Shown: piece by piece, positions 975 through 63,486 of the stretch
Layout of the letters: every line of letters starts with the position of its first letter
Position numbering within the stretch: the stretch's first letter is position 1
Source of the DNA: Escherichia phage phiWec172
Reading direction: 5' to 3' (one strand)
Sequence record: LC739530.1
Length of the DNA stretch: 64,000 nucleotides
Notes under the pieces: generated by a model
The model's input: only the letters and a program-made list of their open reading frames with translations
What the model was told of the DNA's origin: nothing
Databases searched by the model: none
Made by a program: the position numbers and the translations under genes

Positions 975-1178
975 TTATTTGTTATTTTTGACAACTTTTA
1001 AAACTGCACGGTAACCTAAGCAATAAGAATCACCGAAGAGTGACCGGCCCATGAAAGATTCTTCTGTAATATCTTTCGCCGTGACAGTTTTTTCTACGCC
1101 GTGAAAGAGAACTATATCACCAACTTTAATATCTTTGATGTGAGTTGTTTCAATGTGTAAGCCGTTGATAATAGCCAT
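975..1178 (-). CDS. hypothetical protein
   Basis: 67-aa ORF directly preceded by type B cassette. Confidence 0.35.
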   Translation of the reverse strand: MAIINGLHIETTHIKDIKVGDIVLFHGVEKTVTAKDITEESFMGRSLFGDSYCLGYRAVLKVVKNNK

Positions 1179-4165: not shown

Positions 4166-4945
4166 TCAGCTTATGAATTTGAACTTTTTAGAATACAGCA
4201 AGTAGTGAACTTCATCCTGATTTGTTGTGTAGATGTACGCTGCTGGGTAGTTATCAAAGAATACACCTTCATATCTTCCAAACGGGTCAACTGGGAACAT
4301 TTCACTGTTACACATACCCATCTCACTAACCAGAGGGTAACTAACCTCAACCTTGCCATCAACAAGCTGATAGAGGGTAACTTGATTAGTCTTCCCGTCA
4401 CTTAGCACGACACCATCATAGAATTGTGGTGCTGAGGTAGCATACTTAGTGGTAACTACACTTGCCATTGCTTCATCATAGACGTATAGGTACACATCAA
4501 CGTTATACATAACACTATTAATGAGGCTTTTCACAGCTTGTGCATCTAAACCGCCTATACCTGCCCCAATCATGGGTAAACCAATCTTACGAATGTTGTG
4601 CAGCCAGCAAAATTTACGGAGTTTTTCTAGTGACTCCACTAAGTATCGGTATGATGCACACTTCCCAACATCCAACTGTGTATATAGGTTAAAAATGTAA
4701 CCATACTCCGTTCGAGCATGTGACACCTCACCAGCCATCTGGTATCCGATATCATGGGCACTGTAGCCAAACTTTTTATGGAACTTCCGGTCAGCTTCTT
4801 CAGCTTTTGGGAAAATCTTAGCAATTTTTTGAGCGATTCCAGCACCCATGAGGTTACGACAGTTGCAACCATGAGCAATTAACTCAATGTCTGTGTTTTT
4901 GAAGGCAGCTAGTAAGTTACCTTTTACAACTTTTACAATACCCAT
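4166..4945 (-). CDS. Macro-domain (ADP-ribose-binding/processing) protein with C-terminal extension
   Basis: N-terminus VVKGNLLAAF..DIELIAHGCNCRNLMGAGIAQKIAKIFP resembles macro-domain core (compare YmdB [32 protein letters not shown]); about 90 extra C-terminal residues. Confidence 0.5.
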   Translation of the reverse strand: MGIVKVVKGNLLAAFKNTDIELIAHGCNCRNLMGAGIAQKIAKIFPKAEEADRKFHKKFGYSAHDIGYQMAGEVSHARTEYGYIFNLYTQLDVGKCASYRYLVESLEKLRKFCWLHNIRKIGLPMIGAGIGGLDAQAVKSLINSVMYNVDVYLYVYDEAMASVVTTKYATSAPQFYDGVVLSDGKTNQVTLYQLVDGKVEVSYPLVSEMGMCNSEMFPVDPFGRYEGVFFDNYPAAYIYTTNQDEVHYLLYSKKFKFIS

Positions 4946-5182
4946 TTAACATCTCTCCCAAGATTCTTTATCTTCTGAAGGCTTTACACGTTGCCCTTCG
5001 TGGTCTACCCAGATACATCCACAACCTTCACAGATTACTGGCATTGCATAGCCAGCTTTAAAGTCATCTTCAGTGATAAGACCTTTTAAGTCACCTGTAT
5101 CACGTCCGAACATTTCGATAGCACAATCTTTGCAGAAGTCAGCCATGAATAATTGCCTCTTGGATGATGATGCCTTCGCCAC
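4946..5182 (-). CDS. Small Cys-rich putative zinc-binding protein
   Basis: 78 aa with FCKDCA ... CEGCGC cysteine clusters. Confidence 0.4.
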   Translation of the reverse strand: MAKASSSKRQLFMADFCKDCAIEMFGRDTGDLKGLITEDDFKAGYAMPVICEGCGCIWVDHEGQRVKPSEDKESWERC

Positions 5183-5372
5183 AGCGACTTTTGAAATCTT
5201 CTAATGGTTCAGAGATGAAGCCGCGTAAACGGTCACTGAATTTACGTTTTAAACCCTTCTTATAAGTTAGCACATCTTCCCCTGCAAACGGGACGACTTC
5301 ATCTCTCCCTATGAATACTGCTGAACGTACAATCTTGCGGGTCTTTTTATCTCTGGCTAGTATTACTTTCAT
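5139..5372 (-). CDS. hypothetical protein
   Basis: 77-aa ORF; 5-prime end overlaps neighbour, true start may be internal. Confidence 0.3.
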   Translation of the reverse strand: MKVILARDKKTRKIVRSAVFIGRDEVVPFAGEDVLTYKKGLKRKFSDRLRGFISEPLEDFKSRCGEGIIIQEAIIHG

Positions 5373-5676
5373 AGTTTACCTTCTCAGTTAGCTCATACAA
5401 GTCAACATGCTCAATGCTATCAATGTTGATACCAATCTTTTTGAAGCGTTCTATCACTTCGTTGTCAGTCATCCATATCAGACACCAATGATTATGGATG
5501 GATTCTTCAAGAAGGTCAACACAGTCTTTAAAAGTTTTTGTATCACTTCTTGTTCCGACTACTGCGATTGTCCCATACAACCACTTACCATTGCCATAAG
5601 ATACTTGTGCTACGCCAACTTCTTTATCTTTCTCGTCGTAGTAAACGGCTACAAAGTCTCTTCCATTAATCTGCAT
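5347..5676 (-). CDS. hypothetical protein
   Basis: 109-aa ORF. Confidence 0.4.
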   Translation of the reverse strand: MQINGRDFVAVYYDEKDKEVGVAQVSYGNGKWLYGTIAVVGTRSDTKTFKDCVDLLEESIHNHWCLIWMTDNEVIERFKKIGINIDSIEHVDLYELTEKVNYESNTSQR

Positions 5677-5678
5677 AT

Positions 5679-5948
5679 TTACTTCCTCGTTTTAAGAACT
5701 GCTAAGATTTCTTTAGAATCTGGTAAGAACCATGTGTAGTGATTCTCTTTGATTTCTGGATGAGTGTCAACCTTTATTTTGCAGTCTTTACCAACATGCT
5801 TAAGCTGTGCTGTGACACCCTGCATAAAGATATGACACATCACATTATCCATAATGGTTGGTATGAAGTCAATTCGCATATAAGTTTCTTTTGGGCGTGG
5901 TAACAGTAAGTACCCTTCTACGTAAAAAGTATCTTCATTCTCTGTCAT
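5679..5948 (-). CDS. hypothetical protein
   Basis: 89-aa ORF. Confidence 0.4.
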   Translation of the reverse strand: MTENEDTFYVEGYLLLPRPKETYMRIDFIPTIMDNVMCHIFMQGVTAQLKHVGKDCKIKVDTHPEIKENHYTWFLPDSKEILAVLKTRK

Positions 5949-6214
5949 TGCTGTTTATTTCCTAATAAAATCATGTCAATAAGGTTGTTAGCTTTGATTG
6001 TGCACTGGTAAAAGCCGTCACGATAGGACTCAAGGGCTGCTGCTACATCACTGCCTGTGTTACCTTTGATGATATACCGTGATTCTTCTTGAGTGTACTT
6101 ATCACTCTCACTTACTTGGGAGTTTTTGAATGTACTGCTCACTTTGTTCGTTGAACACCCTGACATAGTTATCAGTAACACAAACATTATAAAACTCTGG
6201 CTTAGTTTTTTCAT
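5945..6214 (-). CDS. Putative lipoprotein; candidate outer-membrane spanin (Rz1-like) overlapping the upstream gene
   Basis: Signal peptide with lipobox LITMSGC; starts inside 6108..6455 in another frame. Confidence 0.35.
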   Translation of the reverse strand: MKKLSQSFIMFVLLITMSGCSTNKVSSTFKNSQVSESDKYTQEESRYIIKGNTGSDVAAALESYRDGFYQCTIKANNLIDMILLGNKQQ

Positions 6215-6455
6215 ATGTTAGTACCTCTTTTGTATGCTTATTCTTAGCAAGCACATCTTTCAAATCATTTTTGTAATTGGTGCTCAGTGTGACTAATCCT
6301 TCCTGATAAGCATCTTTAGCAACACTTATGAGCTTTTGATTGTTTAGCTCAGTTTCAGCAACTTGATAGTCTCTGTAAGAGTATCCTCCCCAGACACCTG
6401 CACCAACTAAGAAAACAATTATGAAAGTAGCTTGACAGAACTCTTTAAATGTCAT
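6108..6455 (-). CDS. Putative inner-membrane spanin (Rz-like): N-terminal TM helix plus periplasmic domain
   Basis: N-terminal hydrophobic segment ATFIIVFLVGAGVWGG; embedded overlapping lipoprotein gene. Confidence 0.35.
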   Translation of the reverse strand: MTFKEFCQATFIIVFLVGAGVWGGYSYRDYQVAETELNNQKLISVAKDAYQEGLVTLSTNYKNDLKDVLAKNKHTKEVLTYEKTKPEFYNVCVTDNYVRVFNEQSEQYIQKLPSK

Positions 6456-6469
6456 TTAACAATCTCCTA

Positions 6470-6497
6470 AAATGAAAAAGGCTCCCGAAGGAGCCTG
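6470..6497 (-). terminator. Intrinsic terminator (GGCUCC-UUCG-GGAGCC then U5 on minus strand)
   Basis: Perfect 6-7 bp GC stem with UUCG tetraloop followed by TTTTT in direction of transcription, downstream of 6508..6972. Confidence 0.6.
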
Positions 6498-6507
6498 TAT
6501 CTTAACC

Positions 6508-6972
6508 TTAACCGAGGACTTTAGCAAGGATATTCGCAGCCATCGAAGAAGCTTTTGCAGCAGCAACTACGCCAGCTTTGATAGTGCTATCCTTAATAGC
6601 AGATACCGTTGCAGCATCAGTAAAGAGATAAGTAGTTGTTTTAGAACCACTTGTAAAGGAAAGCATAAGAGCAGTTTCCAGATTGAAAGAGCGATACGGA
6701 GCACCTTCTTTAACAATACCTTCAGCACCTAATTCTGAAGCCATACCCATATCATAGATAGTCATCAGATTTTCTTTATGTGCTGTCGTTGAGCCAGAAC
6801 CTTTTACGTGTTTCTTAACATTCAAAAGAGCACGATACTCTCGGATGTTACCGTCTGCTTTTACATTGACAGCACGGAAGATTTTACCCTCAAAGTTGCT
6901 CTTGATAATGTTACGAACTACTTCAGATTTGTTTGCCGTAACGTCCAGTGCTACCGTAATGATATTGTTCAT
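6508..6972 (-). CDS. hypothetical protein
   Basis: 154-aa ORF. Confidence 0.45.
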   Translation of the reverse strand: MNNIITVALDVTANKSEVVRNIIKSNFEGKIFRAVNVKADGNIREYRALLNVKKHVKGSGSTTAHKENLMTIYDMGMASELGAEGIVKEGAPYRSFNLETALMLSFTSGSKTTTYLFTDAATVSAIKDSTIKAGVVAAAKASSMAANILAKVLG

Positions 6973-6982
6973 AAGTTTTCTC

Positions 6983-7678
6983 TCAATGTTTAACTAACAT
7001 GGTTTTAATGTGTGGAAGGATTCTGTTCACCTTCTGCACATTCTTCTCTGTGTCTTCTATAAAACATACTATATTAAAGTAAGGCAGAATGCAAGACTGA
7101 ATTATCCTCACTTTCAAACTTTCTGCACTTATAGAGTTAGTCCCAAAACCACGCATAAAAAGCATGTAGTCATGCTCTGTGTTATGCCTTAAAAACATCT
7201 CAGTAGGTATTCTCTGAGATTCACCTCTCGCTGTCAAGAGTCCAACAGCAGCATGATTAGCAATTGCATCAATGATATTGAAAACATACGTCGGCTTTGC
7301 TCTTACAGAATCAAGAAGATTGGTATACTGCGAGAATGAACCGTCGGTCAATTCCGTTGAGCAATCTTCGTGATTAAAATTTGTAAGAACACCATCAATA
7401 TCTGCTAAGATGAGATTCCCTTTTTCTACAAGGTCTTTATTGACTATGACTAAGCTATCACGACTCACACCTATAGTTTGTCCAGTCTCTTTATCTACAA
7501 CATTCACAATTGGCTCTGATGTGTGGAACTCTTCGAGTGAACATACAACTTCTCTTGCGGTGTCTTCAAAATCCCTACACTGTTCTGGAGTCCATATGTC
7601 AGAATCAAGACCTAACTCATGAGGATGCAAGTCATAAGCATGGCACAGTACTTCATCAGACTTTCTTAATTTTTTCAT
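6983..7678 (-). CDS. HAD-superfamily phosphatase (possible nucleotidase)
   Basis: Motif LILADIDGVLTNF (DxDGT-type HAD motif I). Confidence 0.4.
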   Translation of the reverse strand: MKKLRKSDEVLCHAYDLHPHELGLDSDIWTPEQCRDFEDTAREVVCSLEEFHTSEPIVNVVDKETGQTIGVSRDSLVIVNKDLVEKGNLILADIDGVLTNFNHEDCSTELTDGSFSQYTNLLDSVRAKPTYVFNIIDAIANHAAVGLLTARGESQRIPTEMFLRHNTEHDYMLFMRGFGTNSISAESLKVRIIQSCILPYFNIVCFIEDTEKNVQKVNRILPHIKTMLVKH

Positions 7679-8204
7679 GATTTACCTTAGAAATGTTTGT
7701 TGCAAATTCACATTGAGCGATAACTTTCATGTTGTTATAGACATCTTGAGAATATTTCTTAGCTTTAGGGATTCTGTACGAATACCCAGCATTATATGAT
7801 GCTAAAACTTTTTGTAAAATCTTCTTTGACTTTGGCTGACCATGCACCTTTGTCCAAAACTCAAGTTCTTTGTGCGTTTCCTTCGCAGCATAGTCAAAGT
7901 CTTTTAAGAGTTTCTTTTTAGCCACATTAGGACTAATTTTGTTACGCTTTACAACAGTCTTCAAGTGATTCTGGAAAATACCATAATCATGTGTCTTTTT
8001 ATTCTCTACCTTCAGACCTAACTCTGACTCTTGTAAGGCTATAGCAGCTAGAGTGATACCCCAACCTTTACCCATGTTATTCTCACCATACTGGTAAGCT
8101 TTTAACATGTTTACTTTTTGGCTAATTGATAGCTCTGGGCAGTCAACTGCATAAGATAAGTGTGCTGTAAACATTAAGCACAAACCTAGAATCAATTTCT
8201 TCAT
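7656..8204 (-). CDS. Secreted lytic transglycosylase-like protein (SLT domain)
   Basis: N-terminal signal peptide MKKLILGLCLMFTAHLSYA; motifs QESELG, YGIFQ, SYNAGYSY resemble SLT E-S / GLMQ / AYNAG. Confidence 0.45.
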   Translation of the reverse strand: MKKLILGLCLMFTAHLSYAVDCPELSISQKVNMLKAYQYGENNMGKGWGITLAAIALQESELGLKVENKKTHDYGIFQNHLKTVVKRNKISPNVAKKKLLKDFDYAAKETHKELEFWTKVHGQPKSKKILQKVLASYNAGYSYRIPKAKKYSQDVYNNMKVIAQCEFATNISKVNHEKIKKV

Positions 8205-8235
8205 TGGTTCTCCTGTTTAGTTTATCGTGACAACA

Positions 8236-8266
8236 ATTATACAGCACTCTGCACAAAATACAAATA
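8236..8266 (-). promoter_or_regulatory. Candidate extended -10 promoter (TGTATAAT) for 7656..8204
   Basis: Minus-strand TGTATAAT at about 8236-8243, weak -35; strong SD AGGAGA upstream of ATG. Confidence 0.3.
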
Positions 8267-8293
8267 AAAAAGGCCGCCGAAGCAGCCTTTTAA
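8266..8293 (-). terminator. Intrinsic terminator downstream of rIIB (stem with one mismatch, UUCG loop, U-run)
   Basis: AAAGGCCGC-CGAA-GCAGCCTTT palindrome; T-run on minus strand. Confidence 0.45.
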
Positions 8294-8304
8294 GAAATTA
8301 CTTA

Positions 8305-9414
8305 TTAGATTTCACGTTTACGCTGAGAGATAAGTTCTCCAGCAGTACCAACGATGACATGAAAAGCTTCAGTCTTGCCATCCCATGCTTTCAGTACTTT
8401 ACGTTGATTATCAACGATTGCTGCAACTTCATAACGAGACGAGCGCATCTTCATATCGTTGTAATCAGTTGGAACAGATACAACATCTCGTGGATGAACA
8501 CGAACCTTCAGAATTGTATCACCTGAGAAGCAACGAACATAATCCCAAGCACCAACATGAAGACCCTGAGAGCAAGTCACGTTACGGTTATTATCAACCA
8601 TCCAACGTGGCATTTCTACAATATTACCTAAATCATTAGGTACTCTGTAGGTGTGGGAGTCAACCAGCTTGCCTTCACGAGTGGATACTTTCTTCCAACC
8701 AATGATGTAGCCTTCTTCATCAATTTCAACATCAAGGTGAGATACGAAGCCCCAAAGTTGTTCTACAGAATCTTTAGATGGGTTTTCCATCAGTTTTTCG
8801 AAGAACATTACAAGTCGTTCAAAACCTTTATCACCAGTCTTCATCATGTGAAGAATACGGTCAACCAGAGTAGAACGCATCTCAACAGCACCGTAGAATA
8901 GCTTGTCACCTTTGATTGTGATAGCCCCCTGAGTGAAGTTTTCGATAGACTTACGAATGTTCATCAGTTCAAAGGCTTTCTTAAACTCACCTTTCACAAC
9001 ATGAACTACAATCTCTTGATAGTTCGGATGAGTAGATTCAACAATTTCAGACTCTGAACCGTAAGTCATAATTACAGAGTCACCAGTAATCATGTACTCA
9101 ATCTTGTCATCTTTCTGCATAGCTTCATGCAGTTTATTTACCGGAGCTTTCTGTACAGCATCTTTAACAACCTTTTCAACTGGTTTGCCAGCTTTCTTTT
9201 TAAAGGTCTTAGCAACTTGCTTCAAAGTCTTCGTAGCTGGTGTAGAAGTCACCTTCTTATTTCCTTTTAAGGTTGCTTCATGACGCTCTACAGCACGACC
9301 AACTGAACGGGTTGAAGTATTAAATCTCTGTGCAATAGCTGTTTTAGTCAGCTTGCCATCTTTAACCAGTTTGTAAATTTCTGCGTCAATCTGTGATTTA
9401 GTTTTAGTAGTCAT
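8305..9414 (-). CDS. rIIB: rIIB-like protein
   Basis: C-terminal motifs VEMPR, CSQGLHV, VHPRDVVSVPTDYNDMKMR match T4 rIIB as recalled. Confidence 0.65.
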   Translation of the reverse strand: MTTKTKSQIDAEIYKLVKDGKLTKTAIAQRFNTSTRSVGRAVERHEATLKGNKKVTSTPATKTLKQVAKTFKKKAGKPVEKVVKDAVQKAPVNKLHEAMQKDDKIEYMITGDSVIMTYGSESEIVESTHPNYQEIVVHVVKGEFKKAFELMNIRKSIENFTQGAITIKGDKLFYGAVEMRSTLVDRILHMMKTGDKGFERLVMFFEKLMENPSKDSVEQLWGFVSHLDVEIDEEGYIIGWKKVSTREGKLVDSHTYRVPNDLGNIVEMPRWMVDNNRNVTCSQGLHVGAWDYVRCFSGDTILKVRVHPRDVVSVPTDYNDMKMRSSRYEVAAIVDNQRKVLKAWDGKTEAFHVIVGTAGELISQRKREI

Positions 9415-9493
9415 CTTATTACTCTCTCTTGTTAGTTAATAAATCATTTTGTGAGGATATTCTAAGGGGCTTTGAAGCCCCTTGTCAAACACT

Positions 9494-11860
9494 TTAATCG
9501 TAAATTGTAGTCCCTTCTGGAACACACTTCACATCAAAGCCCAAGAACTTACTCACTTCGATGGGTGACACTTTATTCCAATCTAAATGAGAAAGCAAGA
9601 AGTTTTCTTGTTTTCTTTTTGAGAAGTAGTTTGTCACCTTAATAAACATACGGTCACCAGCTTTCTTAATTTTCTTGTAAAGCTTTGTATCATTATCAAG
9701 ACACCTTTTCAAATCTTGCAACACACTAATAGTGTAAGTGTATGCAAATTGTGCAGCAACGTATTGGATTTTACCGAACATTGCCTCAACAGCATCTTCA
9801 TTACCTTCTAGGAAGATAGTTTTGTTTGTGTCCCGTGAATAGCAATAACCATCAGAAATCTTCCTGTTATTGAACGTAAAGTTTCTGGTAATAATCCAAC
9901 AGCTTGTAAGGTTAAGGACACCACGCATACAGATGCGTGTCATATACCTGTTATGATTAATCCAATGAACATCAGTTAAGCTGTCGTTCAAGAGCTTCTC
10001 ATCTACTTCAATCCAGTCTTCTGGTATCTTTTTCCAATTTGCTTTTCGGAAAACATAGACTGTCTTCCCTATAACATTAGCAACTGACTTAGCTACATCT
10101 TCTGGAGATGAGCAAAAACATTCACCATCAACTGTGTCGCCAACTGCCTTAATGTAAAGCTGAGGTTCTTCAATTGTGTCTAAGTCTTCTGACACCTCTG
10201 TGTATGAGGCTACACCTTCTGCTGGAACAGCTTTCCAGAGTTTTACAACACCTCTTACAGCTTCTTTACGCTGATAGTGATGTTCCTTATCAGACATCTT
10301 CACAATCTTTAACAAGCTTTTATCAAGTTTGTGTAGGTTGATTAAGTCATCTAGCTCTTTTTCAGTCGAGAATACAAACACAATACCATTATATCTGTGA
10401 AACAGACTTGACTCACTGGCGTAATCTCGACATGCACCACGCAGAATCTGATTGCGGCCTACAGTCTTCTCAGTGCCATTTTTATTACGACGGTCATTAA
10501 TCACGAACAAAAACTGTTCAATTTGGCTTTTACGCATTGCACCAAAGATATTGAACATACTTGCCTCTTGAGTGTAGGAAAGTGCTGTTGCACGAATCTT
10601 ACTCTCTAAAGAGTTGAACTTGACATAAGCAACTGGATTATAAAGATAATCCACTTTAGGGATATTGTTCCCGTTCCTATCAACCTTGATATTACCTTTA
10701 CCGTCACGTTCATAAATGACTGAGCCGTCTTCTGCGTAGATAATCCCACGACGGATGTTTAGTAATTCTACTTCCAGAGAATCAAGCTTAACGCCTCCCC
10801 ACTCTAGCTTTGGACACACAACATTAAACATCTCTCGTGAGTTCAAACGTAACTCAGCATAAGCCTGTGCAGCATCCATGAGTGTAGGTTGGCTGTTAAC
10901 TTTCTTGATAACATCCTTTGTAATGGCTTCAGTTATCTTTTTAGTAGCCTCAATGATAACATTTTTTGTCGTATCATTCATCTGCAATGCTTCACGAGAA
11001 GCTGCAATAGCAACTGAACCAATAGGCATGTAAATGTTTACAAGGTCTACGCTCCTACGGAAAAACTCTGGCAAGACTTTGAAGAAATCATCACCAAGTA
11101 ATGCTTCCATATTAACTGGATAGGCAATATTACCCATCACCACATTAAACTCTGTCCTGTTACCACTAGAACGCCAGCTTTGCTTATGAATCATAGCGTC
11201 ATAAACACCTTCTTCACGAGCAATGACATTCATGTCTGCTAACACGTCATCATATACAATATTACTTTCTGGTTTTACAGCAAAGTATGAGTATACGTGA
11301 CCAGCCTCTTCAAAGAACTTTGAAATACGGTGGTCAGCAACTGCCACACGTACAGCTAAACCATTAGGTTCTTTTGTTGGGTTAGTGGTCAGCTTAGTTA
11401 CTTGAGGGATACCATTCTCAAGGTAAACAGAGTACTTATTAACAACACCATCAACATAGCTAGATACTGTGAATGACTGAGCAATTGCAAATGGAGATTT
11501 TGAACCGATACCCATTGCACCAATGTAATCATTAGAGTCATTCTTCGTAGAAGCCCCGTAGTTTAGGTACAAACTCATAACTTTATCATGAGTCAATCCA
11601 GTTCCAAAATCACGGACTTCAAAGTAAGGCTCAAAACGAGTAGGTAAATGCACATGGAACGGGATATTCTCTTTTCCAGCTTCTTTCTGAGCATCTACTG
11701 CGTTACATGACAGTTCACGAATCACTGCCCTTTCTTTAAAGGTATATACACCAGAACTCAAAAGGCTGAACATTTCAGGTGTCATTGTAATCTGTGCTTG
11801 AGATGTCTCCAAAGAAGTTGAACTCTTAATCACTTCTGCGTGGTCATTTACCATGCGCAT
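9494..11860 (-). CDS. rIIA: rIIA-like protein (N-terminal GHKL/HATPase-like domain)
   Basis: AVIRELSCNAVDAQ, FEVRDFGTGL, NDYIGAMGIGSKSPF match T4 rIIA N-terminal motifs; 788 aa. Confidence 0.7.
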   Translation of the reverse strand: MRMVNDHAEVIKSSTSLETSQAQITMTPEMFSLLSSGVYTFKERAVIRELSCNAVDAQKEAGKENIPFHVHLPTRFEPYFEVRDFGTGLTHDKVMSLYLNYGASTKNDSNDYIGAMGIGSKSPFAIAQSFTVSSYVDGVVNKYSVYLENGIPQVTKLTTNPTKEPNGLAVRVAVADHRISKFFEEAGHVYSYFAVKPESNIVYDDVLADMNVIAREEGVYDAMIHKQSWRSSGNRTEFNVVMGNIAYPVNMEALLGDDFFKVLPEFFRRSVDLVNIYMPIGSVAIAASREALQMNDTTKNVIIEATKKITEAITKDVIKKVNSQPTLMDAAQAYAELRLNSREMFNVVCPKLEWGGVKLDSLEVELLNIRRGIIYAEDGSVIYERDGKGNIKVDRNGNNIPKVDYLYNPVAYVKFNSLESKIRATALSYTQEASMFNIFGAMRKSQIEQFLFVINDRRNKNGTEKTVGRNQILRGACRDYASESSLFHRYNGIVFVFSTEKELDDLINLHKLDKSLLKIVKMSDKEHHYQRKEAVRGVVKLWKAVPAEGVASYTEVSEDLDTIEEPQLYIKAVGDTVDGECFCSSPEDVAKSVANVIGKTVYVFRKANWKKIPEDWIEVDEKLLNDSLTDVHWINHNRYMTRICMRGVLNLTSCWIITRNFTFNNRKISDGYCYSRDTNKTIFLEGNEDAVEAMFGKIQYVAAQFAYTYTISVLQDLKRCLDNDTKLYKKIKKAGDRMFIKVTNYFSKRKQENFLLSHLDWNKVSPIEVSKFLGFDVKCVPEGTTIYD

Positions 11861-12394: not shown

Positions 12395-12422
12395 AATTAA
12401 AAAGGCTCCCGTAGGAGCCTCT
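12395..12422 (-). terminator. Intrinsic terminator after nadV (GGCUCC-UACG-GGAGCC then U5)
   Basis: GC stem with UNCG-type tetraloop and T-run on minus strand. Confidence 0.55.
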
Positions 12423-12434
12423 TATCATATACTT

Positions 12435-61750: not shown

Positions 61751-62128
61751 TTACAGGCCAGTTGGTACGAAATCAATACCTTTAGCAGCCAGAGCTTTCT
61801 TGACTTCAGCAGCATTAACGCTTGATTCAAGAGTCAGCAGGTCTTTTAGTTCTGCATCACGGTGGATACCTACCACTTTCAACTGACCATGATAAGACAG
61901 TTGCAGGTCTGCGTAGAAATTAACGATACATACAGAATCTGCTTGTGCTTCTTCTCCAGCTTGTACCTTAGTACCATCTGCTTTCAGAACTTCACCTACA
62001 CGGTATTCTGTTGAAGCAACTGGAGTGTACTCTTTACGAGAGTGGCCTGTTGGGGTAATCTGTTCCCAAAGAATGATATCATTCAGAGGTTCTCTTTTAC
62101 CTAACTTAGTAAAACCTTGATATGCCAT
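61751..62128 (-). CDS. Head decoration protein (gpD-like)
   Basis: 125 aa between protease/scaffold and major capsid. Confidence 0.45.
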   Translation of the reverse strand: MAYQGFTKLGKREPLNDIILWEQITPTGHSRKEYTPVASTEYRVGEVLKADGTKVQAGEEAQADSVCIVNFYADLQLSYHGQLKVVGIHRDAELKDLLTLESSVNAAEVKKALAAKGIDFVPTGL

Positions 62129-62139
62129 TATTGTGTTCC

Positions 62140-63486
62140 TTATTTAATAAGAGATTTTAGAGCATTCTGGAGAGCCAGTTTGCGTTGTTCAGCGGTGTCT
62201 TCGGAAGCATTTTTAGCTGGTTCTTTTTCTTCTTCAACCAAATCAGCTTCGCCGTCATTACCCACTTCTTCCATAGCGTTGGAATGTTCAAGAACAGCAC
62301 CAGCAGTTTCTTTCAGCTTGGTAATTTCTGATTCTTTTTCTTCCATTGCAGAAGCATGGGACGCGATAGTTTCATTAAGTTTCTGGTTAGCACCTTCCAT
62401 AGCATTCATAAACAGAACACTCAGAGGGTTATCAAGACCAGCACCTAAAATAGTCGTTGCAGCTTCTTTTGCATCAAACCCAAAAACTTCAGCAGAAGCA
62501 GAAATCTTATTAGTCAAATCTGACAAAGCAGCTTCCTGTTCTTTAGCTTTCATTTGAGCAACCTGAAGACGCAAAGCTTCTAGTTCTTGCTTTTCTTGTT
62601 CAGTCATTTCTTCACCTGAATTGTTAACGTTTAAACTTACAGGAGCCTCTTCAGAACCTTGTAAGTAATTTAAGAAATCATCTTGAGACATGATTGAGTT
62701 AATTAAACCAAGTTCAAGAGCTTCCTGAGCAGAATAAACATTCGCCTCAGTATTCTTTACAGCTTCTTCAGAGAGATTACGAGATTCGGCTACAAAACCT
62801 GTAAAGGTTGCGTAGGTATCATTAATTCTCTTTTGAAGTCTTTCTTTGCTTTCTTCTGAAAGTGCTTGGAATGGTGAACCCATACCTTTAAACTCACCAG
62901 CTTTGATGACGTTAATTGTTACGCCATTCTTTTCAAACGCCTTAGTTAATTCCTGATGAACCATAATTACACCAATAGAACCAACATCTGCATCTGGTGA
63001 TGCAATAATTTCTTCAGCAGAAGATGCAAGAGCGTATGCAGCGGAACAAGCGAACTCATCTACATAAGCAATAATTTTCTTTTGGCCTCTTGAAGCCATA
63101 ATGTGACGTGCTAATTCAAAGCAACCTGAAGCTTCACCACCACCAGAATCAATATGCAGAACGATAGTCTTGATTGACTCATCTGCTAAAGCTTCGTCAA
63201 AGCCTCTACGTAAACCTTCATAAGAGCTTAAACCACCTGTACACATTGCATCAATGAATGTCATACGATGAGTTAAACCACCCATAATAGGGATAATAGC
63301 AATGTCATCTCTTACTTTTAAAAGACTTCTTGCGTCACCTTTGGGTTTATCAAAGTTTACTGCTGCTTGGACATCACCCAGTAATCTGTTATTTACATAA
63401 GTTGCTGCTGAGTGAGCTAATGATTCAGTGGCTAGTAAAGGTTGGTTGAATAATCTATCAGCAAGTCTGAAGATATTCGAACTCAT
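62140..63486 (-). CDS. Prohead protease (S49/ClpP-like) fused to scaffold-like coiled-coil domain
   Basis: Protease core IVLHIDSGGGEASG ... FACSAAYALAS; C-terminal charged Ala/Glu/Lys-rich coiled coil. Confidence 0.6.
   Translation of the reverse strand: MSSNIFRLADRLFNQPLLATESLAHSAATYVNNRLLGDVQAAVNFDKPKGDARSLLKVRDDIAIIPIMGGLTHRMTFIDAMCTGGLSSYEGLRRGFDEALADESIKTIVLHIDSGGGEASGCFELARHIMASRGQKKIIAYVDEFACSAAYALASSAEEIIASPDADVGSIGVIMVHQELTKAFEKNGVTINVIKAGEFKGMGSPFQALSEESKERLQKRINDTYATFTGFVAESRNLSEEAVKNTEANVYSAQEALELGLINSIMSQDDFLNYLQGSEEAPVSLNVNNSGEEMTEQEKQELEALRLQVAQMKAKEQEAALSDLTNKISASAEVFGFDAKEAATTILGAGLDNPLSVLFMNAMEGANQKLNETIASHASAMEEKESEITKLKETAGAVLEHSNAMEEVGNDGEADLVEEEKEPAKNASEDTAEQRKLALQNALKSLIK

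What the first reader, a model, noticed from the sequence alone, without database searches (positions are those of the whole stretch)
5945..6455. Candidate overlapped spanin pair
A gene for a protein with an N-terminal TM helix (6108..6455) has embedded in its 3-prime portion, in another frame, a gene for a lipoprotein with lipobox LITMSGC (5945..6214) that extends beyond it. This is the classic Rz/Rz1 overlapped architecture. The lipoprotein is longer and less proline-rich than typical o-spanins, so the assignment is tentative; holin and endolysin were not confidently identified in the window.
Basis: inference. Interest (0 to 1): 0.4.

Follow-up and report, generated by a model that had tools for sequence, protein, structure and literature searches.

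The report
Felix O1-type overlapped spanin gene pair
These two overlapping genes are the inner- and outer-membrane spanin pair of Felix O1-like phages, already listed in the published spanin catalogue and thought to break the host's outer membrane at the last step of lysis, so the finding is correct but ordinary.

Summary
The window is Escherichia phage phiWec174, a Felixounavirus, with window coordinates equal to genome coordinates.

- **The two genes.** ORF 6108..6455(-) encodes a 115-aa protein with an N-terminal membrane helix. ORF 5945..6214(-) encodes an 89-aa lipoprotein precursor (lipobox TMSG|C, Cys20, Ser at +2). It starts in the +1 frame, 107 nt before the first gene ends, and runs past it.
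- **Prior knowledge.** The spanin catalogue of Kongari et al. 2018 lists the Felix O1 pair p014/p015 as 'overlapped' spanins of family 'JH2'. Lengths and overlap are the same; the i-spanin is identical and the o-spanin differs at 2 residues. Several relatives' records annotate the genes as i-/o-spanin.
- **My checks.**
  - The pair is intact in all 29 IMG/VR relatives and, at 26-38% protein identity, in Kolesnikvirus and Kuravirus.
  - The o-spanin-only part is under purifying selection (pN/pS 0.11), and the overlap shows the suppressed variability expected of dual coding.
  - It is the only lipobox ORF in the 86-kb genome.
- **Missing lysis genes.** The endolysin (77754..78218) and the putative holin lie outside the 64-kb window.
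- **What remains open.** Function has not been tested experimentally for this family. Interest is low.

The parts
6108..6455 (-). i-spanin gene (115 aa): N-terminal transmembrane anchor and an 88-aa periplasmic domain with one Cys (C92, codon 6182..6180)
   Evidence: ORF. PHROG 1152 'Rz-like spanin', E = 1.1e-41 over the full length. Identical to Felix O1 p014 in SpaninDB. pN/pS 0.150 in its non-overlapped part. C92 is invariant across four genera.
6384..6440 (-). Codons 6-24 of the i-spanin: the predicted transmembrane helix FCQATFIIVFLVGAGVWGG
   Evidence: Highest 19-residue Kyte-Doolittle window, 1.75. The Kongari supplement flags a TMD and starts the periplasmic domain at R28.
5945..6214 (-). 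o-spanin gene (89-aa precursor, 70-aa mature lipoprotein): signal peptide residues 1-19, lipobox TMSG|C, lipidated Cys20 (6157..6155), Ser at +2, single periplasmic Cys71 (6004..6002)
   Evidence: ORF; properties. PHROG 4180, E = 8.6e-49; PHROG 456 'Rz-like spanin', E = 4.7e-5. Differs at 2 residues from Felix O1 p015. Conserved in 29 of 29 IMG/VR loci and in Kolesnikvirus and Kuravirus. pN/pS 0.109. Only lipobox ORF in the genome.
6108..6214 (-). 107-nt dual-coding overlap: i-spanin codons 81-115 plus its stop, and o-spanin codons 1-36 in the +1 frame
   Evidence: Variable sites make up 0.243 of positions here against 0.394 and 0.429 in the flanking single-coding parts, with no codon-position periodicity. 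Synonymous divergence in the i-frame falls from 0.37 to 0.094.
6464..6468 (-). Shine-Dalgarno sequence AGGAG of the i-spanin
   Evidence: Read from the sequence. The same element is listed for Felix O1 in the Kongari supplement and is conserved in relatives.
6223..6227 (-). Shine-Dalgarno sequence GAGGT of the o-spanin, inside the i-spanin coding sequence
   Evidence: Read from the sequence. GAGGT is kept in all 30 sequences and is listed in the Kongari supplement.
6479..6496 (-). Terminator-like hairpin (AGGCTCC-TTCG-GGAGCCT, then T5) about 10 nt upstream of the i-spanin Shine-Dalgarno sequence; it is probably the terminator of the upstream gene block
   Evidence: Scan; fold -14.8 kcal/mol, z = -1.83. 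A hairpin sits at the same place with different stem sequences in Kuravirus and Kolesnikvirus. Similar hairpins occur at 8291..8268 and 12423..12400, so this is a common element of the region.

Best explanation
This is the two-component spanin of a Felix O1-like phage, in the 'overlapped' gene arrangement.

**Shown by sequence**
- Gene 6108..6455(-) encodes a small protein with one N-terminal membrane helix and an 88-aa C-terminal domain.
- Gene 5945..6214(-), translated in the +1 frame from its own Shine-Dalgarno sequence inside the first gene, encodes a lipoprotein precursor with a signal peptidase II site (TMSG|C) and Ser at +2.

**Inferred from the lambda and T4 paradigms**
- The first protein is anchored in the inner membrane, with its largely helical domain in the periplasm.
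- The second is lipidated at Cys20 and, lacking Asp at +2, is carried by the Lol system to the inner leaflet of the outer membrane.
- The two C-terminal regions bind each other and form a bridge across the periplasm, threaded through the peptidoglycan mesh.
- Each subunit is probably a disulfide-linked homodimer through its single invariant periplasmic cysteine (C92 in the i-spanin, C71 in the o-spanin).
- Once the holin and the endolysin (both encoded elsewhere in the genome) have degraded the peptidoglycan, the complexes are free to cluster and collapse. This fuses the inner and outer membranes and removes the last barrier to phage release.
For: - **Identity of the window.** It is 100% identical to Escherichia phage phiWec174, a Felixounavirus, at the same coordinates.
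- **Published catalogue.** Kongari et al. 2018 list Felix O1 p014/p015 as an overlapped i-/o-spanin pair (115 and 89 aa, 107-nt overlap, lipobox TMSG, family JH2). That i-spanin sequence is identical to the window's.
- **Annotation in relatives.** Andreotti, Mushroom, Sf14, phiSUSP1 and Mijalis annotate these genes as i-/o-spanin.
- **Family match.** PHROG 'Rz-like spanin' matches both proteins, at 1e-41 and 5e-5.
- **Conservation.**
  - The architecture is conserved in 29 of 29 IMG/VR loci.
  - It is also kept at 26-38% protein identity in Kolesnikvirus (overlap 137 nt) and Kuravirus.
  - The lipobox Cys, the +2 Ser and both periplasmic Cys are invariant across these genera.
- **Selection.** Purifying selection acts in both reading frames, with a dual-coding signature in the overlap.
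- **No rival candidate.** This is the only lipoprotein-signal ORF in the genome.
- **Other lysis genes.** A canonical endolysin, and a candidate holin (so annotated in Mushroom) that is itself unverified, exist elsewhere in the genome. This matches the scattered lysis genes described for this phage group.
Against: - No experiment on this family was found: no complementation, mutant phenotype or lipidation test. All literature hits are bioinformatic annotations.
- There is no sequence similarity to the experimentally validated spanins. Pfam found nothing above threshold. BLASTP against T4 PseT.3/PseT.2 gave nothing beyond the signal peptide.
- The genes lie among early-type genes (rII, polynucleotide kinase) and directly after a terminator-like hairpin, so the timing and route of expression are unknown.
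- The charge distribution around the transmembrane helix (K4/E5 before it, R28/D29 after it) does not settle topology by itself.
- Single-sequence AlphaFold models were of low confidence (pLDDT 47 and 56).
- The Kongari supplement predicts no coiled coil for the Felix O1 i-spanin.
- The window's o-spanin has Ser at position 63, where every other homologue examined has an aromatic residue.
Confidence: 0.88

Rival explanations
1. The lipoprotein is not a lysis protein. It could be a superinfection-exclusion or receptor-masking outer-membrane lipoprotein of the T5 Llp or phi80 Cor kind, expressed early, and the membrane protein upstream would be an unrelated neighbour.
For: The genes lie in an early-type region next to rIIA/rIIB and polynucleotide kinase, far from the endolysin. 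The mature protein has no proline-rich region. No functional test exists.
Against: The lipoprotein gene is always coupled by overlap to the same membrane-anchored partner, across four genera and down to about 30% identity. Both partners keep one invariant periplasmic Cys near their C-termini, the pattern described for spanins. The genome has no other lipoprotein candidate that could serve as a spanin. T4's validated spanins are likewise remote from its holin and endolysin (Kongari et al. 2018, Fig. 8 legend) and lie immediately upstream of pseT, the polynucleotide kinase gene (T4 annotation).
Confidence: 0.05
2. The pair is membrane-associated but acts in lysis timing or lysis inhibition (an rI/rIII-like or antiholin role linked to the neighbouring rII genes), not in outer-membrane disruption.
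For: It is close to rIIA/rIIB. The holin of this phage group is only putative (DUF7338).
Against: No similarity to RI, RIII or antiholin families appeared in PHROGs, Pfam or NCBIfam. The PHROG matches are to spanin families. An outer-membrane lipoprotein paired with an inner-membrane type II protein is the defining spanin layout (Kongari 2018).
Confidence: 0.04
3. The 89-aa ORF is a chance alternative-frame ORF and is not translated; only the 115-aa gene is real.
For: Several records annotate it with a truncated start or omit the partner gene: 73 aa in Andreotti and SUT_S720, 65 aa in LinBro, and only the i-spanin in vB_Si_DR094. A representative-library search found only 4 hits.
Against: pN/pS is 0.109 with strong third-position bias in its own frame outside the overlap, against 1.9-2.1 in the wrong frames. 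The full ORF with ATG, Shine-Dalgarno sequence and lipobox is intact in every genome examined, including those with truncated annotations. Shuffled genomes give 0.1 such ORFs per genome. Gene callers are known to miss or mis-start overlapped o-spanin genes (Kongari 2018).
Confidence: 0.01

Closest known systems
Felix O1 p014/p015 and the 'JH2' spanin family of SpaninDB (Kongari et al. 2018, BMC Bioinformatics 19:326); members include Felix O1, wV8, Mushroom, Moogle, UAB_Phi87 and FSL SP-010, plus phiEco32-like phages for the i-spanin
   Same: Same genes. The i-spanin is 115 of 115 residues identical and the o-spanin 87 of 89. The overlap (107 nt), +1 frame, Shine-Dalgarno sequences, lipobox TMSG|C, +2 Ser and cysteine pattern are all the same.
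   Different: There are only two substitutions in the o-spanin, N26S and F63S. F63S replaces an aromatic residue that is conserved in all other homologues examined. In the phiWec174 GenBank record both genes are labelled 'hypothetical protein'.
Phage P2 LysB/LysC (the paradigm of the 'overlapped' spanin architecture)
   Same: The o-spanin gene starts inside the 3' part of the i-spanin gene in another frame and extends beyond it. The pair is a type II inner-membrane protein plus an outer-membrane lipoprotein.
   Different: Kongari et al. place P2 in a separate sequence family from JH2. I did not compare the sequences directly. P2's pair sits in a lysis cassette; this one does not.
Phage T4 PseT.3/PseT.2 (experimentally validated 'separated' spanins)
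   Same: Sizes are similar (117 and 99 aa against 115 and 89 aa). The o-spanin lacks a proline-rich region and has a predicted C-terminal helix. The genes are far from the holin and endolysin and within about 0.5 kb of the polynucleotide kinase gene.
   Different: There is no detectable sequence similarity beyond the lipoprotein signal peptide. T4's genes overlap by only 4 nt. The cysteine pattern is 0 + 2 in T4 and 1 + 1 here. The order relative to the kinase gene is reversed.
Phage lambda Rz/Rz1 (the 'embedded' spanins on which the mechanism was worked out)
   Same: The functional class and the +1-frame nested translation of a lipoprotein are the same. Periplasmic cysteines are available for homodimer disulfides.
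   Different: Rz1 lies wholly inside Rz and has a 40-aa proline-rich, unstructured mature form; here the mature form is 70 aa with no proline. Pfam gave no hit above threshold, so there was none to any Rz or Rz1 model it holds.

Membership tests
Two-component spanin (functional class, criteria of Summer 2007 / Kongari 2018) | The i-spanin is a small protein with a single N-terminal transmembrane domain and a periplasmic C-terminal domain | tested here: met
   Hydrophobic stretch at residues 6-24 (Kyte-Doolittle 1.75), with no other hydrophobic segment. The Kongari supplement flags a TMD and an 88-aa periplasmic domain. The orientation (N-terminus inside) is inferred, not shown.
Two-component spanin (functional class, criteria of Summer 2007 / Kongari 2018) | The o-spanin has a signal peptidase II signal with a lipobox and a non-Asp residue at +2, for outer-membrane sorting | tested here: met
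   MKK n-region, hydrophobic core, TMSG|C at Cys20 and Ser21. Cys20 and Ser21 are invariant in the 9-sequence alignment across four genera. Actual lipidation is not testable here.
Two-component spanin (functional class, criteria of Summer 2007 / Kongari 2018) | The genes are adjacent, i-spanin first, in an embedded, overlapped or separated arrangement | tested here: met
   Overlapped arrangement: 107 nt, +1 frame. It is conserved in Kolesnikvirus (137 nt) and Kuravirus.
Two-component spanin (functional class, criteria of Summer 2007 / Kongari 2018) | At least one periplasmic cysteine, usually near the C-terminal interaction end, for intermolecular disulfides | tested here: met
   C92 in the i-spanin and C71 in the o-spanin are both invariant. 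Disulfide formation itself is not testable here.
Two-component spanin (functional class, criteria of Summer 2007 / Kongari 2018) | The periplasmic domain of the i-spanin is predominantly alpha-helical or coiled-coil | tested here: inconclusive
   The single-sequence AF2 model is all-helical but has pLDDT 46.9. The Kongari supplement gives 66% predicted helix and no predicted coiled coil for Felix O1.
Two-component spanin (functional class, criteria of Summer 2007 / Kongari 2018) | The i- and o-spanin interact physically through their C-termini, and the pair is needed for outer-membrane disruption (complements lambda Rz/Rz1 amber mutants) | not testable with these tools
   No experimental report for this family was found.
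SpaninDB family 'JH2' (the Felix O1-like sequence family) | Sequence similarity to family members above the BLASTCLUST thresholds used by Kongari et al. | tested here: met
   100% and 97.8% identity to the listed Felix O1 entries. PHROG 1152 matches at E = 1e-41.
Lambda Rz / Rz1 sequence families | A match to the family profiles, and a proline-rich region in the o-spanin | tested here: not met
   No Pfam family reached threshold for either protein. The mature o-spanin has no proline.
T4 PseT.3 / PseT.2 sequence families | Sequence similarity, and two conserved C-terminal cysteines in the o-spanin | tested here: not met
   BLASTP found no alignment for the i-spanin and only the signal peptide for the o-spanin (E = 0.043). 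There is one periplasmic Cys rather than two.

The most novel reading that the evidence does not exclude
The G+C-rich tetraloop hairpin with a T-run that sits about 10-20 nt upstream of the i-spanin start in Felixounavirus, Kuravirus and Kolesnikvirus might be more than the terminator of the upstream genes. Its stem sequence differs among the three lineages while its position is kept. It could be a conserved gate, through partial or regulated read-through or through transcript processing, that keeps spanin expression low or delays it in phages whose spanin genes lie outside a late lysis cassette. The window's unique F63S change in the o-spanin could separately mark a functionally altered allele.
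Probability: 0.1. Interest if true: 0.3.

Novelty: already known. Interest (0 to 1): 0.08.

Why it matters
It matters little beyond annotation. The phiWec174 GenBank record labels both genes 'hypothetical protein', and several relatives carry o-spanin genes with truncated starts that remove the signal peptide. These records can be corrected using the published catalogue.

The family is still untested experimentally and differs in sequence from the lambda, P2 and T4 paradigms. A complementation test would add one more independent solution to the outer-membrane step of phage lysis, but this would confirm what the field already expects.

Tried and rejected
- **Curated protein families.** Pfam and NCBIfam gave no family hit for either protein. 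NCBIfam gave only weak matches to lipoprotein signal peptides.
- **Solved structures.** Profile searches of PDB sequences with alignments of both families gave nothing meaningful, with E > 0.6.
- **T4 comparison.** BLASTP against T4 PseT.3/PseT.2 showed no homology.
- **Structure prediction.** Single-sequence AlphaFold2 models of both proteins had low confidence (pLDDT 46.9 and 56.4). I used them only as weak secondary-structure hints and ran no fold search.
- **Breadth of the o-spanin family.** An exhaustive phmmer search of the o-spanin against 1.84 billion representatives gave only 4 hits. This probably reflects how often overlapped o-spanin genes are not called, together with the short query, so it says little about how widespread the family is.
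- **The upstream hairpin.** Rfam gave only sub-threshold hits that probably reflect the generic hairpin. I considered whether the hairpin is specific to the spanin genes. Near-identical hairpins at 8291..8268 and 12423..12400 show it is a common terminator type in this region.
- **Other lysis genes in the window.** I looked for a second spanin, a u-spanin, a holin or an endolysin inside the window. There is no other lipobox ORF, and the endolysin and putative holin map to genome positions beyond 64 kb.
- **Searches not run.** I did not run the search for homologous proteins, because the verdict did not depend on it.

Full report
**Where the window comes from.** Bases 5000-9500 are 100% identical to Escherichia phage phiWec174 (LC739531.1; Ounavirinae, Felixounavirus) at the same coordinates. 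A further 277 phage records match, mostly Felix O1-like phages of Escherichia, Salmonella and Shigella. In the phiWec174 record every gene of this region is labelled 'hypothetical protein'.

**Checking the observation.** Both ORFs exist exactly as described.
- The 115-aa product of 6108..6455(-) has one hydrophobic stretch, residues 6-24, and is otherwise hydrophilic. It has one Cys in the helix (C7) and one in the C-terminal domain (C92).
- The 89-aa product of 5945..6214(-) begins MKKLSQSFIMFVLLITMSG|CST. This is a positively charged n-region, a hydrophobic core, a lipobox with Cys20 and Ser at +2. The 70-aa mature part has a single further Cys (C71) and no proline.
- Its ATG lies 107 nt before the stop of the first gene, in the +1 frame, 8 nt downstream of a GAGGT. 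The first gene has an AGGAG.

**Is it more than chance?** Three results say it is.
- A six-frame scan of the whole 85,991-bp genome (window plus the rest of the record) for lipoprotein-type N-termini on ORFs of 40 aa or more returned only this ORF. Shuffled genomes gave 0.1 per genome.
- All 29 related loci from IMG/VR keep the 115-aa gene, the 89-aa gene, its ATG, GAGGT, an [M/I]SGC lipobox, Cys71 and the 107-nt overlap. This holds even where the i-spanin is only 77% identical.
- Over 28 distinct nucleotide sequences, the part of the lipoprotein gene outside the overlap has pN/pS 0.109, with 46 of 70 variable sites at codon position 3. The wrong frames give 1.9-2.1.
  - The i-spanin-only part has pN/pS 0.150.
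  - In the overlap the fraction of variable sites drops to 0.243, from 0.39-0.43 in the flanks. Codon periodicity disappears, and i-frame synonymous divergence falls from 0.37 to 0.094.
  - This is the signature of two translated frames.

**Distant relatives.** A tblastn search with the i-spanin finds 401 phage records.
- These include Mooglevirus and Suspvirus (about 77% identity), Kuravirus podophages such as SU10 and LAMP (about 32%) and Kolesnikvirus, as in Erwinia phage Rouille and Salmonella SeKF_13 (about 27%).
- In each of the distant loci I examined, an ORF with a lipoprotein signal starts in the +1 frame inside the 3' part of the i-spanin homologue. In Kolesnikvirus it is MKRLF...TASC|ST, 91 aa, with a 137-nt overlap. 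In Kuravirus it is MRKLNQFF...[MT]SAC|ST.
- Alignments show homology of both partners across these genera.
  - The o-spanins share the C-terminal block LE-[FYW]-[YW]-[RQ]-D-x-[YF]-x-x-C...N-x-L.
  - The i-spanins share YEK-TKP-x-F-x-N-x-C-x-[TS]-[DE]-x-Y...FNE.
  - Cys20, Ser21 and Cys71 of the o-spanin and Cys92 of the i-spanin are invariant.

**What is already known.** Kongari et al. 2018 (PMC6139136) list 'Felix01, NC_005282.1, ovl' in their supplementary tables.
- The entry gives p014 as the i-spanin, with a sequence identical to the window's, a 115-aa length and an 88-aa periplasmic domain. It gives p015 as the o-spanin: 89 aa, 70 aa mature, signal MKKLSQSFIMFVLLITMSG, lipobox TMSG and a 107-nt overlap.
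- The main text places Felix O1, wV8, Mushroom, Moogle and others in the 'JH2' family. For the i-spanin it adds the phiEco32-like phages, so the Kuravirus link was also already seen.
- CPT genome announcements state that Felix O1-like phages encode an endolysin, an i-spanin, an o-spanin and a putative holin 'scattered around the genome' (PMC4319497). A Felixounavirus comparative paper also mentions the pair (PMC8300805).
- Andreotti, Mushroom, Sf14 and other records annotate the genes accordingly.
- None of the papers I found reports an experiment on this family.

**The other lysis genes.**
- In phage Mushroom the endolysin is at 70117..70581 and the annotated holin at 61949..62506, among the tRNA genes.
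- The phiWec174 counterparts are at 77754..78218(+) and 69219..69776(-). The first matches Phage_lysozyme at E = 9e-41 and PHROG endolysin at 6e-57. The second matches only DUF7338 and a PHROG of unknown function.

**Comparison with the paradigms.**
- No Pfam or NCBIfam family fits either protein, and no solved structure is related by sequence.
- T4 PseT.3/PseT.2 show no similarity beyond the signal peptide. They resemble this pair in size, in lacking a proline-rich region, and in lying next to the polynucleotide kinase gene and far from the holin and endolysin.
- The gene arrangement is the 'overlapped' type exemplified by P2 LysB/LysC, not the 'embedded' type of lambda Rz/Rz1.
- Single-sequence AlphaFold models were of low confidence. 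They suggest an all-helical i-spanin. For the o-spanin they suggest a disordered linker (residues 20-53) followed by a C-terminal helix (54-84, pLDDT 60-74). I draw nothing further from them.

**Mechanism.**
- Shown by sequence: two translated, co-conserved genes that encode a membrane-anchored protein and a lipoprotein precursor with an outer-membrane sorting signal, each with one invariant periplasmic cysteine.
- Inferred from the lambda and T4 work cited in Kongari et al.:
  - the two proteins bridge the periplasm through a C-terminal interaction;
  - they are held as disulfide-linked dimers and are restrained by the peptidoglycan;
  - they fuse the inner and outer membranes once the endolysin has removed the wall.

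**Rivals.** I considered three other readings: an exclusion-type lipoprotein, a lysis-timing role, and a spurious ORF.
- All are disfavoured by the strict coupling of the two genes across four genera, by the cysteine pattern and by the absence of any other spanin candidate.
- The spurious-ORF reading is further contradicted by the selection analysis.

**Verdict.** The feature is already catalogued, so interest is low.

Noticed in passing
window 6479..6496 (-); also 8268..8291 (-) and 12400..12423 (-); L036/L037 about 1095..1125; L038/L039 about 1150..1175: A G+C-rich hairpin with a UUCG-type loop and a T-run lies 10-20 nt upstream of the i-spanin Shine-Dalgarno sequence. There is no room for a promoter between the hairpin and the start codon. 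It is at the same place in Kuravirus and Kolesnikvirus with different stem sequences (GCCACC/GGTGGC and GGACTC/GAGTCC), and is absent in two IMG/VR relatives (L028, L030). Similar hairpins punctuate the whole rII-to-spanin region, so it is probably an ordinary terminator, but how the spanin mRNA is made is unclear.
   Followed up: partly
window 6026..6028 (-), o-spanin codon 63: The window's o-spanin has Ser63 (TCC). Every other homologue examined has an aromatic residue in the conserved LE[FYW][YW][RQ]D motif: 29 IMG/VR loci, Felix O1, Andreotti, SUT_S720, LinBro, Kolesnikvirus and Kuravirus. This is a single T-to-C change, presumably shared with phiWec177, which is 100% identical over this region.
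   Followed up: partly
L001 1937..2158; L041 943..1164; L042 937..1134: Several GenBank records (Andreotti, SUT_S720, LinBro) annotate the o-spanin from an internal start (73 or 65 aa). This removes all or part of the signal peptide and leaves no functional lipoprotein signal, although the full 89-aa ORF is intact in each. SU10 and LAMP likewise annotate only a 57-aa 3' fragment of the Kuravirus o-spanin.
   Followed up: yes
L035 1178..1524 (Citrobacter phage BSwM KMM4, OP902293.1): The i-spanin reading frame is split by a frameshift (36-aa N-terminal piece plus a 109-aa remainder) and is not annotated, while the o-spanin is intact. This is either a sequencing error or a spanin-defective isolate.
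   Followed up: no
window 7656..8204 (-): A 182-aa protein with a cleavable-looking signal peptide (MKKLILGLCLMFTAHLSYA) has a weak, sub-threshold match to the SLT lytic transglycosylase domain (Pfam E = 0.0023). It sits between rIIB and the polynucleotide kinase gene. It is annotated 'putative lysin' in Andreotti and 'T4 RegB-like' in Mushroom, falls in PHROG 600 (unknown function) and has no PDB sequence match. It could be a secreted muralytic enzyme distinct from the endolysin.
   Followed up: partly
window 5945..7678 (-) compared with T4 134002..135781 (L040): In both Felix O1-like phages and T4 the spanin pair lies within about 0.5 kb of the polynucleotide kinase (pseT) gene, downstream of it here and upstream in T4. 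The spanin proteins show no detectable sequence similarity.
   Followed up: partly
phiWec174 genome 69219..69776 (-) = L005 5219..5776, outside the window: The gene annotated as 'holin' in phage Mushroom lies in the middle of the tRNA gene array and matches only DUF7338 and a PHROG of unknown function. The holin assignment for this phage group therefore looks unverified.
   Followed up: partly
window 4166..4945 (-); L036 1639..2079; L038 1695..2477: A macro-domain or 'phosphatase' gene (Appr-1-p processing family) follows the spanin pair directly in Kuravirus and Kolesnikvirus. In the window it follows after four small ORFs. This is a conserved neighbourhood of unknown meaning.
   Followed up: no
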